A stretch of 64,000 nt of DNA from Podarcis bocagei (taxonomy: Eukaryota): assembly GCA_964188305.1 (NCBI GenBank), contig OZ076886.1, one strand, 5' to 3'. Positions 1 through 62,944 of this stretch are shown in pieces. A program made the translations under genes and the position numbers. How positions within the stretch are numbered: the first letter of the stretch is position 1; each line of letters begins with the position of its first letter. The notes beneath the pieces are model-generated. The model made no database searches. It was not told where the DNA came from and saw only the letters and a program-made list of their open reading frames with translations.

Positions 1-480
1 TGTGTCTATAAGTAAGATGAATAAAAAAAAATAAGAAGATTGAACAGCTCTCCACATTCTCAACTAGAATAAGCTAAGTCTATGAAGATATTCTTTGGGT
101 ACAATCTATGTTTCTCTCAGTCCAGGCAGTGATGGTTTCAGTGATGGTCAGGACCTGACACACATGAACGTGAAGCCAATGTGGTGCCTTCAACTACAAC
201 TCCCATCATCCCTAACGATTGACTATGCTGGCTGAGATGGGAGATGTGTCCAAAACAGGCTTCTGCTGCCATTGAACATTCCCCATAGAACCCCTGTACC
301 TTGCAGAGGACATTCCACAGCAAATATATAGAAGTTTCTTGGCACATGGTGGTGTGGGGAAAGTTCTCTGAAGATAAACGTTTAAAAGCTACTCAGTTAG
401 AAATTCTGGAAAATGGGGGGTTGGGGGAAGAGATGCCATAGACACAACTTGGCTGGAATCTCCTTGTTTAGTTCATGTAC

Positions 481-603
481 CTCTTTTGCAGCCTTTAGAG
501 CTTCTATCCATTCATCCCGCGAAATATTTATCGACAAGTTGGACTCCTGCCACACTTCCAGTTTGTGAAGGTAGTTGTGGACCGCAGAGCGCTCAGGAAA
601 ATA
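481..603 (-). CDS. QSOX1-like: QSOX-like exon 9 (gene continues left of the window)
   Basis: 123 nt: YFPERSAVHNYLHKLEVWQESNLSINISRDEWIEALKAAKE, cf. YFPGRPLVQNFLHSVNEWLK; GT donor at 480. Confidence 0.9.
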
Positions 604-3131: not shown

Positions 3132-3261
3132 CTTGGCCAGTATATGCACATACTGCTTCAATGCAGAGAGCCTCTCTTCAGTGAAGTTGGCTAAACTTAC
3201 TTCAATTCTGTGCAGGCTGCAAAGCACAGCATACTCCAGGTCAGCCATGCACAGCTGTGTC
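3132..3261 (-). CDS. QSOX1-like: QSOX-like exon 8 (helix-rich/pseudo-Erv region)
   Basis: 130 nt: TQLCMADLEYAVLCSLHRIEVSLANFTEERLSALKQYVHILAK, cf. SKIYMADLESALHYILRIEV...QRLVALKKFVAVLAK. Confidence 0.93.
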
Positions 3262-4041: not shown

Positions 4042-4176
4042 CTGTCTGCTACCTCCCAGGAGTCAGGGGTAGCCTTTGTTTCTGCTATTGGTGGCTTAGA
4101 AGTGTCAATGATTTCTCTCTGGACCCCAGGTAGTGTCCGCAGGAAGTCTGTATAGAAGGATCTTGAATTATTTGCC
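4042..4176 (-). CDS. QSOX1-like: QSOX-like exon 7
   Basis: 135 nt: ANNSRSFYTDFLRTLPGVQREIIDTSKPPIAETKATPDSWEVAD(R), cf. ESRSFYTAYLQRLSGL...VWKLADR. Confidence 0.93.
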
Positions 4177-5086: not shown

Positions 5087-5232
5087 AGGGGGATGGGTGT
5101 GCAAGGGCCTTTGCTTGAATACAGGAAGCCAGAAGGGAAGGTGGTGACCTTGCATCTAGTCACTAGCTCCGCATTGCTCTTCAAGACTCTCCTCACAACA
5201 ATGTTTTCATACTGGGCCATGTCCAATATGAC
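5087..5232 (-). CDS. QSOX1-like: QSOX-like exon 6 (Trx2)
   Basis: 146 nt, not in the ORF track: VILDMAQYENIVVRRVLKSNAELVTRCKVTTFPSGFLYSSKGPCTPIP, cf. VALDLSQHKGVAVRRVLNTEANVVRKFGVTDFPSCYL. Confidence 0.93.
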
Positions 5233-6159: not shown

Positions 6160-6241
6160 CTCTCTGCCCAAAAAGGAGTCCTCCCCCTCGAATATCAGGG
6201 CCACCTTGCTTCCCTGAATGGAGTCAACAAATTCTGTGGTA
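6160..6241 (-). CDS. QSOX1-like: QSOX-like exon 5 (Trx2)
   Basis: 82 nt: TTEFVDSIQGSKVALIFEGEDSFLGRE, cf. YLALIFEKGGSYLGRE. Confidence 0.93.
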
Positions 6242-6729
6242 CTGTAAAATAGCAAAGAGAATAGCATGTTAAACAAAATTTGGACAAAGTCCCACATCAA
6301 CATTCTTTTCATGCAAATACTGGTCCTCCCAATAGCTCAATAGTTATTCCTGGGCATAAATCATGCACTGATCCCTTGACGTAATTGGATTTGGCATATT
6401 GACATGTGACACTGTGGGAGATTAGAAAATTAAAATGTCTTTTTAAAATTTATATATAAAGGCATTTATATACTGCTAACCTGTGTAAAATATCAAGGCA
6501 ATGTAACAAATATTCAATAAAACATAACACATCACGAATGATTGGCTAATCAAGAAATGTAAACAACTGTCTGCATAAAAGATCTGCCAAGCCTGAAAGT
6601 CAATAGTAAATATGCTTGCCCAATTTCTGCTGGAAGAGTATTCCATAGCATGGGACTGATGACACCAAATACCTGACTTCTTAACATATTTTGTGAAGAA
6701 ATTGATTGAAAGATGCCTAAAATATTTAC

Positions 6730-6835
6730 CTGAGCGGAGCCAACAGTGGGGCGTCAGGGGACCACCAACTACTTAGATGACTCTCTGCAAAGGTGATTAT
6801 GGCTTCCCTTAGGCTCTGAGGGTCATCCTTAATTT
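6730..6835 (-). CDS. QSOX1-like: QSOX-like exon 4
   Basis: 106 nt: (E)IKDDPQSLREAIITFAESHLSSWWSPDAPLLAPL, cf. DVQTLRERLIDALESHHDTWPPACPPLEP. Confidence 0.92.
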
Positions 6836-7837
6836 CTATGAGGGGAGGAAAAGGCTGATCATAACTCTGAGGACAGTCATTGTGCATTCTCCAACCCAAA
6901 CACCTCTCACAAACAGATGCCACGTGCCAGCAAAGGCTGCTTGCAAGCCAGATCCAATTTCTAACACATTTTGAATGTGAGCTTCCCTTTGGCCTTTAAA
7001 CTTTATTTATAAATATTTATATCCTAATCTTTACCTCAAAATCTCAGGGCAAGGAACGTTTTTTAAACAAACCCATTAAACAATAAAATCACTATTCACA
7101 CCAAGTAAAAAAACAAACCCTGAACAGCAGCATCTTTAAAAATCCCAAGCTGAACACTAAGAATTTCTAAAAGCTTGAGTACACAGCCATGTTTTAAGGT
7201 TGCTTTGGAACAGAAACTCTGAGAAAAATAGTGCTGTTTTTTTTAAAAAAAAACAAACAAACCATCCCTAAAATATAGTTACCACTCTGACCTTATCTTC
7301 TCTATGGGTATTGGGTTGTAGGCTGTGTATGCCTATTTTGGTTCTAAAACACATATCAGGAAGTCAAGTTCATCTTGCCTTCGGGACCAGAACATATATT
7401 CCTGTGACTCATCTTAACATATATAAATATTTGTGCAGTGTGCATGAATTTCCAATTTGCTAATATATTCCCATACAGGAGTGTGAACTCCAAGCTGCTG
7501 ATTGTCAGAAGAGTGGCAGGCTATTCTTTTAATTGCTCACTAAATGTGAAACATCACAAAAAGAGAAAAAGTAGGGAAGGCCAAAGAGATTGTGTCTGTC
7601 CTAGCTATTTGCACTGATAACCACCCTCCACCTTGGACAACCATGGCTCTGTAAGGCTTCCATGTGATCATGTGTTTCATCTGGGTGGAGAATGGGGAGG
7701 AGGGAGCAAGAAGCTCAGTTCTCCCTCCAGCTAGTCGCAGCCTAGCTAATTAACCTCTGACCCTCACCTCAGCAGTGAGAGCTCTAGATTCAAATAAATA
7801 ATTATGTGAGGTTTAGAATCAATTTCAGGACACATAC

Positions 7838-7886
7838 CTTCAAGCTTTATGCCATCGCCAGCATATGTAGAGGATGGCTTTAAAAA
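7838..7886 (-). CDS. QSOX1-like: QSOX-like exon 3
   Basis: AG/GT-bounded, 49 nt: FLKPSSTYAGDGIKLE; phases compatible with exons 2 and 4. Confidence 0.85.
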
Positions 7887-8808: not shown

Positions 8809-8909
8809 CTTCACAGTTGGGTATGCGGTGACTTCAAAGTCTGAACACATTTTCTCGTTGCACATCTTGCCACAATCTATCACACCCAGCTTCAAAGTAG
8901 GTCTCCAGT
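8809..8909 (-). CDS. QSOX1-like: QSOX-like exon 2
   Basis: AG/GT-bounded, 101 nt: (D)WRPTLKLGVIDCGKMCNEKMCSDFEVTAYPTVK, cf. QSOX1 WRPALYLAALDCAEETNSAVCRDFNIPGFPTVR. Confidence 0.93.
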
Positions 8910-9628: not shown

Positions 9629-9978
9629 AAGGTAAAGGGACCCCTGACCATTAGGTCCAGTCGTGGCCGATTCTGGGGTTGCGGCGCTCATCTCACTTTA
9701 TTGGCCAAGGGAGCCAGCGTACAGCTTCTGGGTCATGTGGCCAACATTACTAAACCGCTTCCGGCTAACCAGAGCAGCGCACGGAAACGCCATTTACCTT
9801 CCCACCAGAGCGGTACCTATTTATCTACTTGCACTCTTACGTGCTTTCAAACTGCTAGGTTGGCAGGAGCAGGGACAGAGCAACGGGAGCTCACCCCGTA
9901 GTGGGGATTCAAACTGCTGATCTTCTGATCGGCAAGTCCTAGGCTCTGTGGTTTATCCCACACCGCCACCCGCATCCC
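9629..9978 (-). mobile_element. Sauria SINE
   Basis: Reverse complement of the 37924 copy; GGGACGCGGGTGGC-type head and CCCTTTACCTT tail. Confidence 0.85.
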
Positions 9979-10489
9979 ATTAGCTAGGGTATCTAACCTT
10001 TTTTGCCTCAAGGGCCACACCGACCCATGTTCTATGGGGCAGGGGGTTGTCAAAGTGGGCATGGCCACTGTCTGCTGGCATTCAGAGACCACCTACTCAA
10101 ATGGAAGAAGCAAGAGATAGGGTGGTTCAAGCGGGAAAAAGCATGGGAGCGCCACGGAGCTTAAACTCAAGGCAGAGAGCCGGCTGGTGTCTCGAGGGTT
10201 GAGCAGAGAAGGGGGAATGCACGGGCTCCTGTCCCTTAAGATGCAGCAGTAGCCGCTCTCTCTGAGCATGACATGGGCTTTCTCTAAATAAGTTGGAGGG
10301 GCAGCCTCGACGCCCTGATAATTCTGCCTTGAACAGCGCGCAATGCGACTGTTCAAGGGAAAGAAAATCTCTGAGCATGCACAGAGGGTCCTTCCGTCAC
10401 ATTCACCAGCCACCAACGCCAAATCTGACGGTGAAGGGGTGTGTGAGAGACAGGTATCCCGGCAGCACAATTAGCCCGGCTTGTCCTAC

Positions 10490-10754
10490 CCTTTATATCC
10501 TGGGCGAGCGCTCGCCACGTGGGGGCGAAGGCGGCGGAGGCGGCAGACCAGCGCGCGTAAAACTGGACAACCCAGGCGCTGCGAGAAAAGAAGAGGCTTT
10601 GCAGCGTGTCCGGCTGCAGCTCCACCACGGGGTCGTGGGGTCCGTAGCGAGAGACGCCGCAGGCCTGCGACGGCGGGGAGAAGAGGCAGGCGGCGGCCAG
10701 GAGGACCAGGCAAGCGGGCAGCCCTGGCCCGACTCGGGGGAGACACCTCGGCAT
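10490..10754 (-). CDS. QSOX1-like: QSOX-family sulfhydryl oxidase paralog, coding exon 1 (signal peptide + start of Trx1; CxxC replaced by SxxS)
   Basis: ATG at 10754 gives MPRCLPRVGPGLPACLVLLAAACLFSPPSQACGVSRYGPHDPVVELQPDTLQSLFFSRSAWVVQFYARWSAASAAFAPTWRALAQDIK. This aligns to QSOX '[32 protein letters not shown]'. Phase-1 GT donor at 10489; lies in a CpG-rich island. Confidence 0.93.
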
Positions 10755-11749
10755 GACGAGCAGCAAGATCTGGGTCGTTGGGGGGAGAGAGGCGCGCACA
10801 CTGCTGGGTGTGCAGCGGGGGAGAGCGAGGTGCTTTTAATGGAATCCACCAGGCCCGCCCCCCAGACCCCCCCCCCTCCATCATGCCCACCCTCCAGACT
10901 TTGGAGGGCGCACGATGGGGTGGATCCTCTGCGACTCCATCCAGTCCCGGAATTGGAGGTCTTCTGTGCCAGTGTCCCCGACGTTGTTTGCCCAGGGCGT
11001 CGAAAGCAAACTCGGCGCGACGCCGCTTCCCGCTCAAAGGGAGGGAGAGGAGGAGAAACTAAGTAAAGTTGTTCTATTACCTTATTGGAGACAAAGAGCA
11101 AGAAGCATGGACGTAGCTGGGGTGGCAGGGAGGGACAGCTGCTCCCCCATCAATAAAAATACATAGCAAACTGAGGTTCTGCCCCTCTAATAAAAGGCTT
11201 CCCCCCTCCCCAACAAAAATCCTGGCTATGCCCATGGCAAGAAGTATGCAATTCTGTTGGCCTAAGCAACACAAGAGACACAGGTGCATGCTGTTCAACA
11301 GTTAGGACACTGCAATAAACAGAATGCGCAACGTAATGAAGGAGCTCCCAGGATACAACACCTGTATTGTGGGAAACAGCATGTAAAGAGAAAAGAAAAA
11401 TGCCCAGGATATGGACAGCATATGGACAGCGTGTGGCAAGCTGTGCATTTGTAGCAACCCTAACCTTTGAACAGAGTACTATAACACATTCATTACCCAC
11501 TACCAATCATTGATGATGTGACCTATTCTGAACCAATGTTCTCTCATGGTTTCCCATAAAAAAGAATGGATTCTGGCACATGCAACTTGACACAGAGTCA
11601 AGGTATCTGACCTCTTTTGCAACTCCTGTTGGCAGATAACGTTGGCTTCAGTCCAGCCCCTGAAGTATTTCAGCACTGATTGAATCATCAGGAGCTAGAG
11701 ATCAGGACAGTCAGAGAGAGTTAGGAGTTAAAGAAAGCTTATTGGATTA

Positions 11750-51362: not shown

Positions 51363-51641
51363 AGTTTAAAAGGCCATAATTTATCTTGGTTGGCTGGTGG
51401 TTTTGTTTATGTACATGAGATGTCTTCAACTAAGTCCTACTCAAAGTAAATTCAACAGAATTAATGAACTTAAGTTTGTAATGTCCATTAATTTCAATGT
51501 GTCTGCTCTGAATAGGACTATCTTATGCTTTTAACTACTGATATTGTAACCCACTTTCAGCTTCTTTTTCATAATGCAAAGTGGGGCTAGAAATATTTTA
51601 ATTGAATTGATTAAATAAGTTACCACCTACATATTTTCCAG

Positions 51642-51896
51642 CACCGTATTCTGAACCTCAAATCAAAATCCAGAAGGACACTGTGGTGTGCACAGCGTCA
51701 GGAGGGCATCCACAGAGGCAGCTCTATTGGTTTGGTGACCATGGAACCAACCTGACTCACAATTCAAAACTTGTGTCTTTGAAAAATGAAGATGGTTCAT
51801 TCTCTCTCATCAGTACTCTTCAGCGGCAGTCTCTTGACAGTGGCACGATATGCTGCTCCATCCTGAACAACAACACAAATTGTGATAATCCCCAGG
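51642..51896 (+). CDS. SECTM1: SECTM1-like, B7/butyrophilin-type IgC exon
   Basis: (A)PYSEPQIKIQKDTVVCTASGGHPQRQLYWFGDHGTNLTHNSKLVSLKNEDGSFSLISTLQRQSLDSGTICCSILNNNTNCDNPQ; AG/GT-bounded, phase 1-1. Confidence 0.85.
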
Positions 51897-53760
51897 GTGA
51901 GTTCAACAAAAATGTCTTGTTGCCTACAGACTAAACTGTCCAGAAAGCCATGGCAGTGACACTGGCTTGGATCCATTTCAAAATCAACTTTAACTTGTAC
52001 TGTAGTGGAAGATTTTTGGGTGGGGAATGGGTATTTTGAGAGCAAATTAACTGACAGGAAACTGGTTGTGATTTTGATTATGTTGTGAACTGCCCTGAGA
52101 TCTATGGATGAAGGGTGGTATACAAATTTAATAAATAAAGAATAATAAAATAATAATAATCTAGATGGGAATGTGTTTTGGGGGGAGGGGTGAATTGGAA
52201 AGAAATGATTGGTGGGTTTAATGTTTGGAGCCCAGAGCCCAGTCTCTGCTCTGTACTGGGGTCACTTCTAGAGAACCTGTTTATTGAGCATTCATCCTGA
52301 TTTTTTGTGTGTGGGGATGTTAAGCAATCAATGATGTTTCATCAAGCAATCGTTACCCCACACTTTCTGGTGTGTTTTCCTGTCAGATTAAGTCAGAATT
52401 GTGGGGTGGGTGAGTTTGTTATGCAAGAGCTCCAGATTAAGTTTAACTGAGCAACCTGAATTTCCTGTGTCAAGAGCCCAGGCTGCCATCTTGATAACAC
52501 AGCACGTAAGTCGTAATTAGCTAGAAGATTTATTGCGATACAAACAATTAGTCTCGGACGTCTAACCAAGCATCTGTGCCTTACGAGTCAGTTGACCCTT
52601 CTGAGGAGTGCTTCCTGGTTCTGCAGAATATCCTGAACCTATGACCCTTATGTCTCTGGGTTTGTTTCCTGTCTAATACCTTTCCCATACATCTACTCTT
52701 TGGGCTCAGGGGATTAATTGCCTCCTCTTCCAGTGAAGAAATGCTACCCCTCCTGCTTTCTGAGCCTTCCTGTGCTTCTTAAGCGAGTTGACTTCTCTCC
52801 CTTCCACTCTCTGCTAACACCTTATCTACATTCCATTCCTTGTCAGGAGGAGGGGAGGGGGGCTGCTCCCAGCTGTCTGACTGCTTCCTAACTCATGCTG
52901 TATTTCTCTACTTGGGGCAGATGTGTTCATGACATCCTGGTATGTGATTGAATCCTACCCAAAATAGCAATGGTCTACAAGTGCCCTGAGTTTGTGGCCT
53001 TAGCTAGTCACTTATTTTGAGCTAATCCAACACTGCTCCTTGCAGTAATCATTTCGTACCCTCCAACATTTTTCAGATTAAAATAGGGACGTACTATTCT
53101 AACATCATCATCACCATCATCATCATTTTATTATTTATACCCCGCCCTTCTGACTGGGTTGCCCCAGCCACACAGGGTGCATTCCAACATATATAAACAT
53201 TGAACAACTTCCCTGTTGTTTAATGAGATGTCTTCTAAAGGTTGTATAGTTACTTATCTCCTTGGCTCAGGGGTTGGATAACTCCATACCCTCCAGCATT
53301 TCCCCAATGAAAATAGGGACGTTGTAAGGAAAGTGGGACATTCTGAAATCAAATCAGAAACTGGGATGACTTCTATAAATCCAGGACTATCCCTGGAAAA
53401 TAGGGACACTTGGAGGGTCTGCCATTTGCACATCTCCAGGAAGCTTACAAGCAGGATCCAAGGACCACGGCCTTTCCCTCTCATCTGTCTCCTGCATCTG
53501 GTATTCAGGGGTGTACTGCCCCAGAACATGGAGGTTTTATAGGAGCGACTTCCACTGACAGATTCATGATGGAGGAGTGGAGCTGAGGAAAGGGATGTTG
53601 GCAGTGGTTTTATGATTATTTGTAGCTTCCTCACTTTTTTGAGCTACTGGTGGCTTGATTGTACCTGAGACTTGGGTATTTGCAGATTGTCATAGTCAGT
53701 TGTGTCCAAAGATACAATTCACTCCAGATGTTGCTTTTTTTCTCTTCCCCTCCTGTACAG

Positions 53761-60668: not shown

Positions 60669-62263
60669 GTGTAGACTAAGGTGGTTCAACCTGTGGCCTT
60701 CCCGCCAGATTCAAGAATAATAATCTTAAAATCTTAAAAAATTATCATTTGTGTCATGGGTTGCTAACAAAAGTGCATACATTAAATTTGTTTAATAATT
60801 AAATCAATTAAATATATTAATTGTGTATTTAATTATATATATTTATTTAAATATATTGTGTATATTAAATGATATTAAACATATTGTGAACACTTTAATT
60901 CATGATATGGAAATTTAATTTAGTTTGTGGGCCGCAGGTTCTGTGCTTAAGTACTCTTGCGTCCCAATTAGTATGAAAAATTGGACCACACTTATATAGA
61001 CAATATTTCACTAGATGTCTCAGTGGTCTGATTCAGTATAACAAAGCTTCCTAAATTTCCATGTGGGGGATCAGTCTTACTACAGAGAGACTGGACAAAG
61101 AAAACATGCTCATACCTTTAAGCAGGCAAACAAATGAAACTGGAAGGGACATTCTTCAGTGCTGTGTGCGTGCGTGAGTGGTAGAGACAGTCTTCCAGGG
61201 TGAAGAAACTAAATAAAATAATAATCTCAAGTTGTAGGCATTTCTTCTGGAGGGGTGGTGGTGGTTCTCTTGCTCAAATTCTCCATTATTTTCTCTTAAA
61301 GGTCACATGCAGCACATAACTCATTGCCCACAACATTAGAATATGCACCCAGAAAAATGCTAAAACAATAACAAGCATTTTTTTATTTTTAAAAAATTAA
61401 ACATCCCTGTGTTGTATCTGTCTCCTGCAAACAGTGATATTTCAGGGGCTATGGACAACTGCAGACAAGCACATTCATATCTAAAACTCAAAAGCATGTT
61501 GGTGCTAGTAAGGAAAGTCTGATTTCTCCAGGAACTAGTTGCGGTGTAAGTGCTGAATTCCGAGAAGCAGTAGCACTGTCTGGAGGAATATGTATCCCCT
61601 TTATCTCCCAAGGAAGCCTGGGAAGAAATTGGGTTCACTTTGCATTTTAATATGAACCACCTTATTTGTGCTTCCCAAAACAGTGCACAAACTGAAACAC
61701 CAGTATCCTTTGGAATTTGCATTTCCAAATTTTGCAGTGCAGTTCTGTAACCAAAATATTTCTGAAGAAATTTCTTTATTAGGAAAACATGCATTAAAAT
61801 GCATGCACTAAGGAAAATAACAAAGTACACTGCAGAAATATACAAGCCGGGGAAAAGAACATACAAAAATGTGTCTATTAGGAGAAATGCACCCTAAAAT
61901 GTGGACTTATTTTCATGAAGACTTAGTTACTGAAAGAATGCAAATGACGCAGGAATGTGGCAAACTGAACTAAAGACTGGGGAGCTAAGAAACTGGGAGT
62001 CACTGAAATTGACTGTGCTGTCCATTCCTACTCAAGAGTGAAAGGGCTTCCACCATTTCAGAAACTGGAATTGATTGCATCCACTCTCAGCTCCTGCTGG
62101 TTTCAGCATTTGAAACCTGTTGCAATCCATCATTCTTAAAACCCACTGAAGTCAATTGTGCAAGTGTATAGGTAAGTCCCATTATTTTACAGCAGTACGG
62201 CCAATATCTTCAGAGTCTCACCTGTCCTGTATGCCTGTCCCTCACCCTTTTTCCCCCTTTAAG

Positions 62264-62605
62264 TCACAGAAAACAAACCAGAACTAATAGTTATCACTGC
62301 TGAGGAAGGGGAGTCTGTCAATATTACTTGCAAGTTTGACCAACTGGCGATGTCAGGGCTGCGTTTGAGACGGACACTTGTGAAAGCCATGGATGTGCTA
62401 TATGTGAAAAAGCTGGGTCTACGCATGACCAAAGCTCCTGAATATGCTTATCGCATGGAGTACTTTGAGCTGAAGAACGCATCGACGATAATGCTGAAGC
62501 ATGTGAAGAAGAATGACAGTGATGGGTATTTGTGTGGTGGCACCCTGATAATTAACCAGGAGCCCATGATAATGAATTTCAGCACTATCATCTTGGCAGT
62601 GAAAG
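62264..62605 (+). CDS. CD7: CD7 IgV exon (alternative in-frame acceptor gives start 62270)
   Basis: ITAEEGESVNITCKFDQLAMSGLRLRRTLVKAMDVLY...RMEY...TIMLKHVKKNDSDGYLCGG...TIILAVK, cf. human CD7 [22 protein letters not shown]..QDIIY...LTITMHRLQLSDTGTYTC. Confidence 0.88.
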
Positions 62606-62715
62606 GTGGGTCAGGAACAATCATTACTTCAACAGTTAGAGGGAATGGCAGCTCGATTTGTTGGCTACAAAGAGAAAGACAAGTATCTAGCAAAATGTGT
62701 CTGTGCATGTATATA

Positions 62716-62944
62716 CAGTGGTACCTCGGGTTAAGTACTTAATTCGTTCTGGAGGTTCGTTCTTAACCTGAAACTGTTCTTAACCTGAAGCACCACTTTA
62801 GCTAATGGGGCTTCCTGCTGCTGCTGCCGCGCCGCCGGAGCACGATTTCTGTTCTCATCCTGAAGCAAAGTTCTTAACCCGAGGTACTATTTCTGGGTTA
62901 GCGGAGTCTGTAACCTGAAGCGTATGTAACCCAAGGTACCACTG
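62716..62944. mobile_element. MITE family A
   Basis: Same TIRs, TA TSD; in CD7 intron 2. Confidence 0.9.

What the first reader, a model, noticed from the sequence alone, without database searches (positions are those of the whole stretch)
10536..10550. Intact QSOX paralog whose catalytic Trx1 WCGHC is rewritten as WSAAS: candidate pseudo-enzyme or rewired sulfhydryl oxidase
Seen: codons TGG TCT GCC GCC TCC replace both redox cysteines with serine and GH with AA. All nine visible exons are open, in phase and have canonical splice sites. Established: in QSOX1/2 this Trx1 CxxC takes electrons from substrate dithiols and passes them to the Erv/FAD domain, so without it protein-thiol oxidase activity is lost. 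Inference: four substituted residues in an otherwise preserved secreted protein point to selection for a non-canonical role. Options are a redox-dead binder/chaperone, an inhibitor of canonical QSOX, or an Erv-only oxidase fed by an external PDI-like partner.
Basis: partly seen in the sequence, partly recalled or inferred. Interest (0 to 1): 0.85.

Follow-up and report, generated by a model that had tools for sequence, protein, structure and literature searches.

The report
Redox-dead QSOX1 duplicate in lacertid lizards
Wall lizards and their relatives carry an intact, spliced extra copy of the disulfide-making enzyme gene QSOX1 that has lost all four catalytic cysteines and over half of its flavin-contact residues, so it is predicted to be no enzyme at all and is likely kept as a secreted binding protein.

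Summary
The WSAAS motif is real. It lies in exon 1 of an intact 12-exon, 531-aa gene, with all 11 introns at QSOX1's positions; canonical QSOX1 and QSOX2 sit on other contigs. Left of the window the Erv CxxC is also gone (YSPA), the FAD-binding HNxxN helix segment is deleted, and the membrane tail is missing, so an 'Erv-only oxidase' is refuted. Five annotated lacertid species have the same 531-aa protein (RefSeq: 'sulfhydryl oxidase 1-like'). Rhineura (half-decayed) and two Elgaria copies (Erv intact) form one clade with it inside squamate QSOX1. Spliced contigs exist. Structural disulfides and the fold are kept, no frame-breaking change occurs where neutral decay predicts about 31, and divergence between genera is no greater than QSOX1's. 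Best reading: a secreted QSOX pseudo-enzyme kept for binding; partner and tissue unknown. Caveats: amino-acid change is fast at times, and the SAAS rewrite sits in a 9-nt tandem repeat, so it may be one slippage event rather than four selected changes. No description turned up in my paper searches.

The parts
10490..10754 (-). Exon 1 (coding): predicted signal peptide (about aa 1-31), start of Trx1 with WSAAS; transcript contig begins near 10807
   Evidence: hydropathy peak 1.98 at aa 8-26; no signal-peptide program was run
10536..10550 (-). W69-S70-A71-A72-S73 in place of WCGHC; S70 onward lies in an imperfect 9-nt tandem repeat running to the conserved FAP
8809..8909 (-). Exon 2: Trx1 CX8C loop (C101, C110 kept; new C105) and cis-Pro119 kept
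7838..7886 (-). Exon 3 (Trx1)
   Evidence: joint 6835/7838
6730..6835 (-). Exon 4 (end of Trx1, start of Trx2)
6160..6241 (-). Exon 5 (Trx2)
5087..5232 (-). Exon 6 (Trx2; clade-specific C228, plus C245)
4042..4176 (-). Exon 7 (end of Trx2, linker)
3132..3261 (-). Exon 8 (pseudo-Erv/HRR; new C299, C309)
481..603 (-). Exon 9 (pseudo-Erv/HRR)
1..480 (-). Intron 9, running out of the window. Beyond it lie exon 10 (G000:C2:95292110-95292254; backstop loop, FAD Arg to Glu, alpha1 Trp to Arg, new C391), exon 11 (95289891-95290046; Erv CxxC replaced by Y446-S-P-A449, HNxxN segment deleted) and exon 12 (95288342-95288499; C499-x-x-C502 kept, stop after residue 531, no membrane tail; AATAAA about 450 bases further on)
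10401..11100 (.). CpG-island-like promoter/exon 1 region (GC 0.60-0.70, CpG observed/expected 0.64-0.95)

Best explanation
This is an intact, spliced squamate duplicate of QSOX1 whose lacertid form lacks both redox CxxC motifs, part of the FAD site and the membrane anchor, and it is likely a secreted, flavin-free pseudo-enzyme kept by selection for a binding role, most likely through its PDI-like Trx1-Trx2 half. Shown: gene structure, residue losses, orthologs, spliced contigs, clade. Predicted: QSOX fold retained. Inferred from QSOX biochemistry: no dithiol oxidation, no O2 reduction, probably no FAD. Inferred: secretion (signal peptide, no tail, no KDEL, 7 N-glycan sequons). Inferred and untested: it binds client proteins or a ligand in a tissue-restricted secretion without catalysis. 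History (inferred): DNA-level duplication early in squamates, loss of the tail, FAD-site damage in the lacertid+amphisbaenian ancestor, loss of the remaining cysteines on the lacertid stem, then renewed constraint.
For: 12 exons, 531 aa, no stop; 11 of 11 introns match QSOX1 in position and phase. All four redox Cys (70 of 70 other QSOX) are absent in 6 of 6 lacertid sequences; FAD contacts R401, W408, H455 are replaced and H481/N482/N485 deleted, while C101-C110, P119, C393-C405 and C509-C512 are kept (roles from PMC3616962 section 12). Family-conserved columns kept: Trx2 19/20, Trx1 20/28, HRR 12/17, Erv 24/54. Model pLDDT 79, pTM 0.70 matches rat QSOX1 at Z 33.3; Trx half rmsd 1.7-2.0 A, Erv half 3.6 A. 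Seven lacertid sequences are 531 aa without indels; neutral simulation expects 7.9 disabling point hits in the crown and 23 on the stem, 0 seen. Between genera 5.1-6.7% divergence versus 7.6-8.8% for QSOX1. Spliced contigs in runs X2 and X12 show five exact junctions. Loss of either CxxC greatly lowers activity and TCEP oxidation needs C449-C452 (PMC3401233 passages).
Against: No partner, tissue, protein detection or assay. Within Podarcis it diverges as fast as or faster than QSOX1 (2.8-4.0% versus 2.0-2.8%), and 7 of 8 (X2) and 4 of 5 (X12) listed exonic differences change the residue (only 40 of 147 rows were shown). dN/dS against own QSOX1 is 0.51 (0.38-0.63); as the paralog lineage carries about 80% of the amino-acid change, its own average may be near 0.8 (rough inference). 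Contig depth is low (3-17) and raw RNA run X23 (about 12% read) had no depth over exons 1-4 and 8. It is absent from the 667-protein L. agilis femoral-gland list, which has canonical QSOX1. The model was built with a 79-row alignment of mostly active QSOX, which biases it toward their fold. Four of eleven FAD contacts remain, so weak flavin binding is not excluded.
Confidence: 0.7

Rival explanations
1. Rewired thiol protein: not an oxidase, but uses a new cysteine (C105 beside the dead active site, or C32/C309) to capture clients or itself by a mixed disulfide, as single-cysteine PDI relatives do (ERp44, AGR2; recalled).
For: The mature protein has 13 cysteines, an odd number, all invariant in 6 of 6 lacertid sequences; C32, C105, C228, C299, C309 and C391 occur in 0 of 70 other QSOX. 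C105 lies in the CX8C loop, which forms the Trx1 docking face (PMC3616962). cis-Pro119 is kept.
Against: Without the Erv engine nothing would reoxidise it. No data on thiol state.
Confidence: 0.12
2. A dispensable duplicate under relaxed selection, still transcribed, drifting toward loss.
For: Long branches (0.43 clade stem, 0.45 lacertid stem against 0.15 for QSOX1); mostly amino-acid-changing differences within Podarcis; low transcript depth; SAAS explicable by slippage.
Against: Zero stops, frameshifts or splice losses where about 31 point hits are expected (P about 4e-4 for the crown alone, indels not counted); 5 of 5 lacertid species with an annotated QSOX1 also have the intact paralog; losses concentrate on catalytic and FAD positions and spare fold positions; divergence between genera is below QSOX1's.
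Confidence: 0.1
3. Decoy or inhibitor of canonical QSOX1, competing for substrates, binding sites or the Erv docking face.
For: Trx half is well kept; canonical QSOX1 and a QSOX2-type gene keep their motifs in the same genome.
Against: Human C70A/C73A QSOX1 at about six-fold excess did not harm matrix or adhesion in fibroblast culture (PMC6295897 passages); the backstop residues for Trx-Erv docking are degraded; QSOX relays electrons within one chain.
Confidence: 0.05
4. Erv-only oxidase fed by an external PDI.
For: H412, F456, W503, F535 equivalents and the C-terminal CxxC remain. It could still apply to Elgaria copy 2 (WCIDT with Erv CPKC).
Against: Erv CxxC is Y-S-P-A; HNxxN deleted; R401E, W408R; Pfam Evr1_Alr absent for 4 of 4 lacertid paralog proteins tested, present for QSOX1, Rhineura and both Elgaria copies.
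Confidence: 0.02

Closest known systems
QSOX1 (quiescin sulfhydryl oxidase 1), especially the short secreted isoform
   Same: Trx1-Trx2-pseudoErv-Erv order, 11 of 11 intron positions, structural disulfides, cis-proline, predicted fold (Z 33.3 to PDB 4P2L); about 45-50% identity to squamate QSOX1
   Different: Separate gene on another contig, between UTS2R and a CD7-like gene; no Trx CxxC, no Erv CxxC, FAD helix segment deleted, hard-wired stop before the membrane tail, six new cysteines, pI 5.1 against 8.0 for the QSOX1 core
RefSeq/UniProt 'sulfhydryl oxidase 1-like' of Podarcis muralis, P. raffonei, P. lilfordi, Lacerta agilis, Zootoca vivipara (e.g. XP_028572892, XP_032995347, XP_034960483)
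   Same: The same gene: 531 aa, 13-33 differences
   Different: Automatic names imply an enzyme; the names shown do not note the loss of catalytic residues
Pseudo-Erv (HRR) domain inside QSOX
   Same: An Erv fold without FAD or catalysis (PMC3616962, PMC3401233 passages)
   Different: That is one support domain of an active enzyme; here the second, formerly catalytic Erv has followed the same path and the whole protein is predicted dead
Non-catalytic PDI-family proteins (ERp27, ERp29, PDILT, calsequestrin; recalled, not tested)
   Same: Thioredoxin folds without a CxxC, working as binders or chaperones
   Different: ER/SR residents with no Erv module; this protein has no retention signal and descends from QSOX1

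Membership tests
QSOX enzyme family (EC 1.8.3.2) | N-terminal Trx domain fused to a pseudoErv/Erv module | tested here: met
   Pfam Thioredoxin, QSOX_Trx1, FAD_SOX above cut-off; structure match over residues 36-531
QSOX enzyme family (EC 1.8.3.2) | Redox-active Trx1 CxxC | tested here: not met
   SAAS in the window and 6 of 6 lacertid sequences; Cys in 70 of 70 others
QSOX enzyme family (EC 1.8.3.2) | FAD-proximal Erv CxxC | tested here: not met
   YSPA (FSPA in Zootoca)
QSOX enzyme family (EC 1.8.3.2) | FAD-contact residues (alpha4 His/Asn/Asn, alpha1 Trp/His, phosphate Arg/Lys, alpha3 His/Phe) | tested here: not met
   6 of 11 lost, K500 to R/S, 4 kept; Evr1_Alr not matched
QSOX enzyme family (EC 1.8.3.2) | CX6-8C disulfide, cis-proline, backstop disulfide, C-terminal CxxC | tested here: met
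   C101/C110, P119, C394/C406, C499/C502 kept
QSOX enzyme family (EC 1.8.3.2) | Bound FAD and thiol oxidase activity | not testable with these tools
   needs recombinant protein
QSOX1 gene lineage (descent) | Nests with QSOX1 and shares its exon structure | tested here: met
   inside squamate QSOX1 100/100; own clade 100/100; lacertid-only origin rejected, p-AU 7e-49; introns 11 of 11
Pseudogene | Broken frame, lost splice sites or no transcript | tested here: not met
Pseudo-enzyme | Enzyme fold without catalytic residues, expressed and conserved | tested here: met
   sequence, model, spliced contigs and conservation; protein-level expression not shown
Pseudo-enzyme | Demonstrated non-catalytic function | not testable with these tools
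   no partner or phenotype known

The most novel reading that the evidence does not exclude
The first whole-protein QSOX pseudo-enzyme with a new job: a squamate secreted protein whose emptied flavin pocket or new reactive cysteine (C105) has been repurposed for ligand carrying or covalent client capture, with Elgaria (active-looking), Rhineura (half-dead) and lacertids (dead) preserving the steps of that conversion.
Probability: 0.2. Interest if true: 0.75.

Novelty: new variant of a known kind. Interest (0 to 1): 0.55.

Why it matters
QSOX catalytic motifs are almost invariant: 214 of 225 aligned homologs keep all four cysteines, and the only records with none are this lacertid gene. A naturally dead but conserved QSOX would show that the scaffold has a value apart from catalysis, a question approached in the papers I saw only with engineered mutants (PMC13168330 claims such a role for QSOX2; PMC6295897 saw no effect of an inactive QSOX1 mutant in fibroblasts). 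The Elgaria-Rhineura-lacertid series gives a testable path from enzyme to pseudo-enzyme. It also corrects database names that call these proteins sulfhydryl oxidases.

Tried and rejected
Assembly error, pseudogene and retrocopy: rejected. Extra copies in this genome: searches with exon 1 and with an Elgaria copy found only the three QSOX loci at strong E-values (lower bounds). Alternative P. lilfordi models (389, 530, 622 aa) read into introns 8, 11 and 10; contig lengths fit the 12-exon form, but junctions 8/9 to 11/12 were not seen directly. Femoral-gland protein: accession not in the supplement of PMC9000839 (I did not check that it was in their 2020 database). Uterine role: no 'sulfhydryl' or 'QSOX' in the 2 held supplements of PMC13387830. 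Tissue of expression: no RNA holder listed as on record; 14 guessed-RNA contig runs from 4 studies held part of the last exon and UTR, without tissue labels. True dN/dS among lacertids: no ortholog CDS available. Orthologs in iguanians, snakes, geckos, skinks, turtles, birds: none among the named hits or the top hits; these searches score limited candidates, so absence is weak. Synteny of the Elgaria and Rhineura copies could not be checked; orthology rests on the tree and shared C228/C309. Earlier scan findings: none. No complex prediction was run.

Full report
1. Observation. The minus strand at 10550-10536 encodes W-S-A-A-S at residues 69-73 of a reading frame that starts at ATG 10754. Nine exons in the window are AG/GT-flanked, in phase and give 379 residues without a stop. 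The window is G000:C2:95294001-95358000; the same search found two other QSOX loci, on C5 and C20. C5 has WCGHC and an intact Erv motif, and C20 has an intact Erv motif and membrane tail. The C5 gene joins to 763 residues and matches annotated lacertid QSOX1; C20 I take as QSOX2 by its weaker match and tail, without placing it in a tree.

2. The rest of the gene. Three more exons lie left of the window, giving 12 exons, 1596 nt and 531 residues with a single terminal stop. All 11 introns fall at the same aligned position and phase as in the genome's QSOX1, so this is a DNA-level duplicate, not a retrocopy. It sits between a urotensin-2 receptor gene (E 4e-122) and a weak CD7-like Ig exon (E 0.018). 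The protein has one strongly hydrophobic stretch, at the N-terminus, where QSOX1 has two; it stops just after the last Erv helix, has 7 N-glycan sequons and no KDEL-type end. Secretion is inferred from this.

3. Both catalytic centres are gone. Against 70 other QSOX sequences in alignment A3, all four redox cysteines are 70 of 70 conserved and absent in 6 of 6 lacertid sequences. The Erv motif reads Y-S-P-A. Using the FAD contacts named in PMC3616962 (abstract, passages and section 12 read) and PMC3401233 (passages): R401 is Glu, W408 is Arg/Gln, H455 is Arg, and H481, N482, N485 are deleted with a 7-residue segment (exon 11 is 156 nt against 177); K500 is Arg/Ser; H412, F456, W503 and F535 remain (numbering of gibbon P0033). 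Structural features stay: C101-C110, cis-Pro119, C393-C405 and the C-terminal CxxC. Of columns at least 90% conserved in the family, the paralog keeps 19 of 20 in Trx2, 20 of 28 in Trx1, 12 of 17 in HRR and 24 of 54 in Erv. Pfam Evr1_Alr is missed by 4 of 4 lacertid paralog proteins tested and hit by the 4 controls. The AlphaFold model of the P. lilfordi ortholog (pLDDT 79, pTM 0.70) matches rat QSOX1 at Z 33.3, rmsd 4.3 A over 466 residues; the Trx half fits at 1.7-2.0 A and the Erv half at 3.6 A. The alignment behind the model is mostly active QSOX, so the fold is a prediction biased that way.

4. How unusual. Of 260 proteins aligned (redundant set, all hits under 1000 aa plus this protein), 225 had both motif sites aligned: 214 keep four cysteines, 8 have none (this protein and 7 lacertid ortholog records), 2 lack one Trx cysteine (Elgaria copy 2 and an unnamed protein with WCGHS), and 1 is a PDI-type non-QSOX; 35 with a gap at one site (fragments, truncated models or PDIs) were set aside.

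5. Relatives and history. The ortholog cluster has 9 records from P. lilfordi, P. muralis, P. raffonei, L. agilis and Z. vivipara, named 'sulfhydryl oxidase 1' or '1-like'; six are 531 aa, 13-33 residues from this protein, with no indels. A partial Rhineura protein has Erv CPDN, the same Arg-to-Glu change and the same deletion; two Elgaria proteins lack the tail, keep the Erv motif and FAD helix, and have WCSDC and WCIDT. These form one clade (100/100) inside squamate QSOX1 (100/100); its exact root within squamates is open; a lacertid-only origin is rejected (42 and 21 rows chosen from the hits). The lacertid stem is 0.45 changes per site against 0.15 for QSOX1; crown branches are alike. Stepwise loss is inferred from this tree. 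The Rhineura record lacks Trx1, so the timing of the SAAS change is only bounded.

6. Is it under selection? For: a neutral simulation on the CDS (kappa 4, point changes only) expects 7.9 stops or splice hits over the crown tree and 23 on the stem; none exists. 5 of 5 species with an annotated QSOX1 have the intact paralog. Between genera it differs by 5.1-6.7% against 7.6-8.8% for the QSOX1 core. Against: within Podarcis 2.8-4.0% against 2.0-2.8%; 7 of 8 and 4 of 5 listed exonic differences in runs X2 and X12 change the residue (partial listing); dN/dS to own QSOX1 is 0.51 (0.38-0.63, dS 0.74), and most of dN belongs to the paralog lineage. The picture is fast, perhaps partly adaptive change with a strictly kept frame. 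The SAAS codons themselves sit in the CDS's best 9-nt-period repeat (15 of 18, p about 0.001), so they may be a single slippage event; I do not count them as four selected changes.

7. Expression. Contigs from runs X2 and X12 (RNA by guess, two coded species) are joined exactly at introns 3-7, and X10 at intron 5. The 2104-nt X2 contig runs from 10807 through exons 1-8 and has 1036 further letters, which fits exons 9-12 (582 nt) plus about 454 nt of UTR ending at an AATAAA about 450 bases past the stop; those last junctions were not seen directly. Depth is low (3-17). Raw RNA run X23 (about 12% read) gave no depth over exons 1-4 and 8, which hints at tissue restriction but rests on one sample. 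No tissue label was available.

8. Mechanism. Canonical QSOX passes electrons from substrate to Trx1 CxxC, to Erv CxxC, to FAD, to O2 (PMC3616962). Every link is broken here, so no oxidase activity is predicted, with or without an outside PDI. What selection keeps is the fold, best in the PDI-like half, so I commit to a secreted non-catalytic binder (0.70). The 13 invariant mature cysteines are an odd number and six are new, so covalent thiol capture is the main rival (0.12). Relaxed decay (0.10), QSOX1 inhibition (0.05; a C70A/C73A mutant was inert in fibroblast culture, PMC6295897 passages) and Erv-only oxidase (0.02) follow. A reproductive-tract role is a guess by analogy with secreted mouse QSOX1 (PMC8506963, passages); femoral glands are not supported (PMC9000839, passages and supplement). 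A non-enzymatic role has been claimed for human QSOX2 (PMC13168330, passages).

9. Novelty. It descends from QSOX1 but fails the family's catalytic criteria, so it is not a QSOX enzyme; it works most likely like non-catalytic PDI relatives (recalled). The gene is already in automatic annotations. No listing pointed to a description of it in paper searches (listings only; open-access library; supplements and subscription journals not searched). The 2013 family survey's passages that I read mention motif variation among paralogs but no cysteine-free member. Verdict: new variant of a known kind, interest 0.55.

Noticed in passing
L006:2570-6313 and 6335-7411 (-), G000:C2:95266570-95271411: Non-LTR retrotransposon with an open 1248-aa endonuclease/reverse-transcriptase frame and an adjacent 359-aa frame; looks full-length and recent.
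   Followed up: partly
L005:1836-2960 (-), G000:C2:95275836-95276960: Single-exon urotensin-2 receptor gene about 11 kb downstream of the paralog. With the CD7-like exon this resembles the human CD7-SECTM1-TEX19-UTS2R interval (recalled).
   Followed up: partly
window 51611-51931 (+): Ig-C exon of B7/butyrophilin type, best match CD276; gene not worked out.
   Followed up: partly
window 62263-62739 (+): Ig V-set exon, weak match to CD7 (E 0.018).
   Followed up: partly
protein P0020 (UniRef A0A7N5JHL1): Labelled giant panda but groups with Python QSOX1 at 100% support: probably a mislabelled snake sequence.
   Followed up: partly
proteins P0013, P0014 (Elgaria): Two tail-less QSOX1-like copies on a contig of the same length with unusual Trx motifs WCSDC and WCIDT and intact Erv: candidates for retuned or Erv-only oxidases.
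   Followed up: partly
protein P0151: Unnamed non-vertebrate-looking QSOX with WCGHS and intact Erv CxxC, an independent single-cysteine variant.
   Followed up: no
window 9629-9978: High-copy SINE-like repeat in intron 1, abundant in transcriptomes.
   Followed up: no
lacertid QSOX1 (P0021 cluster): Podarcis and Elgaria QSOX1 lack three residues in the backstop loop next to the FAD-phosphate Arg, and lacertid QSOX1 diverges about 8% between genera.
   Followed up: no
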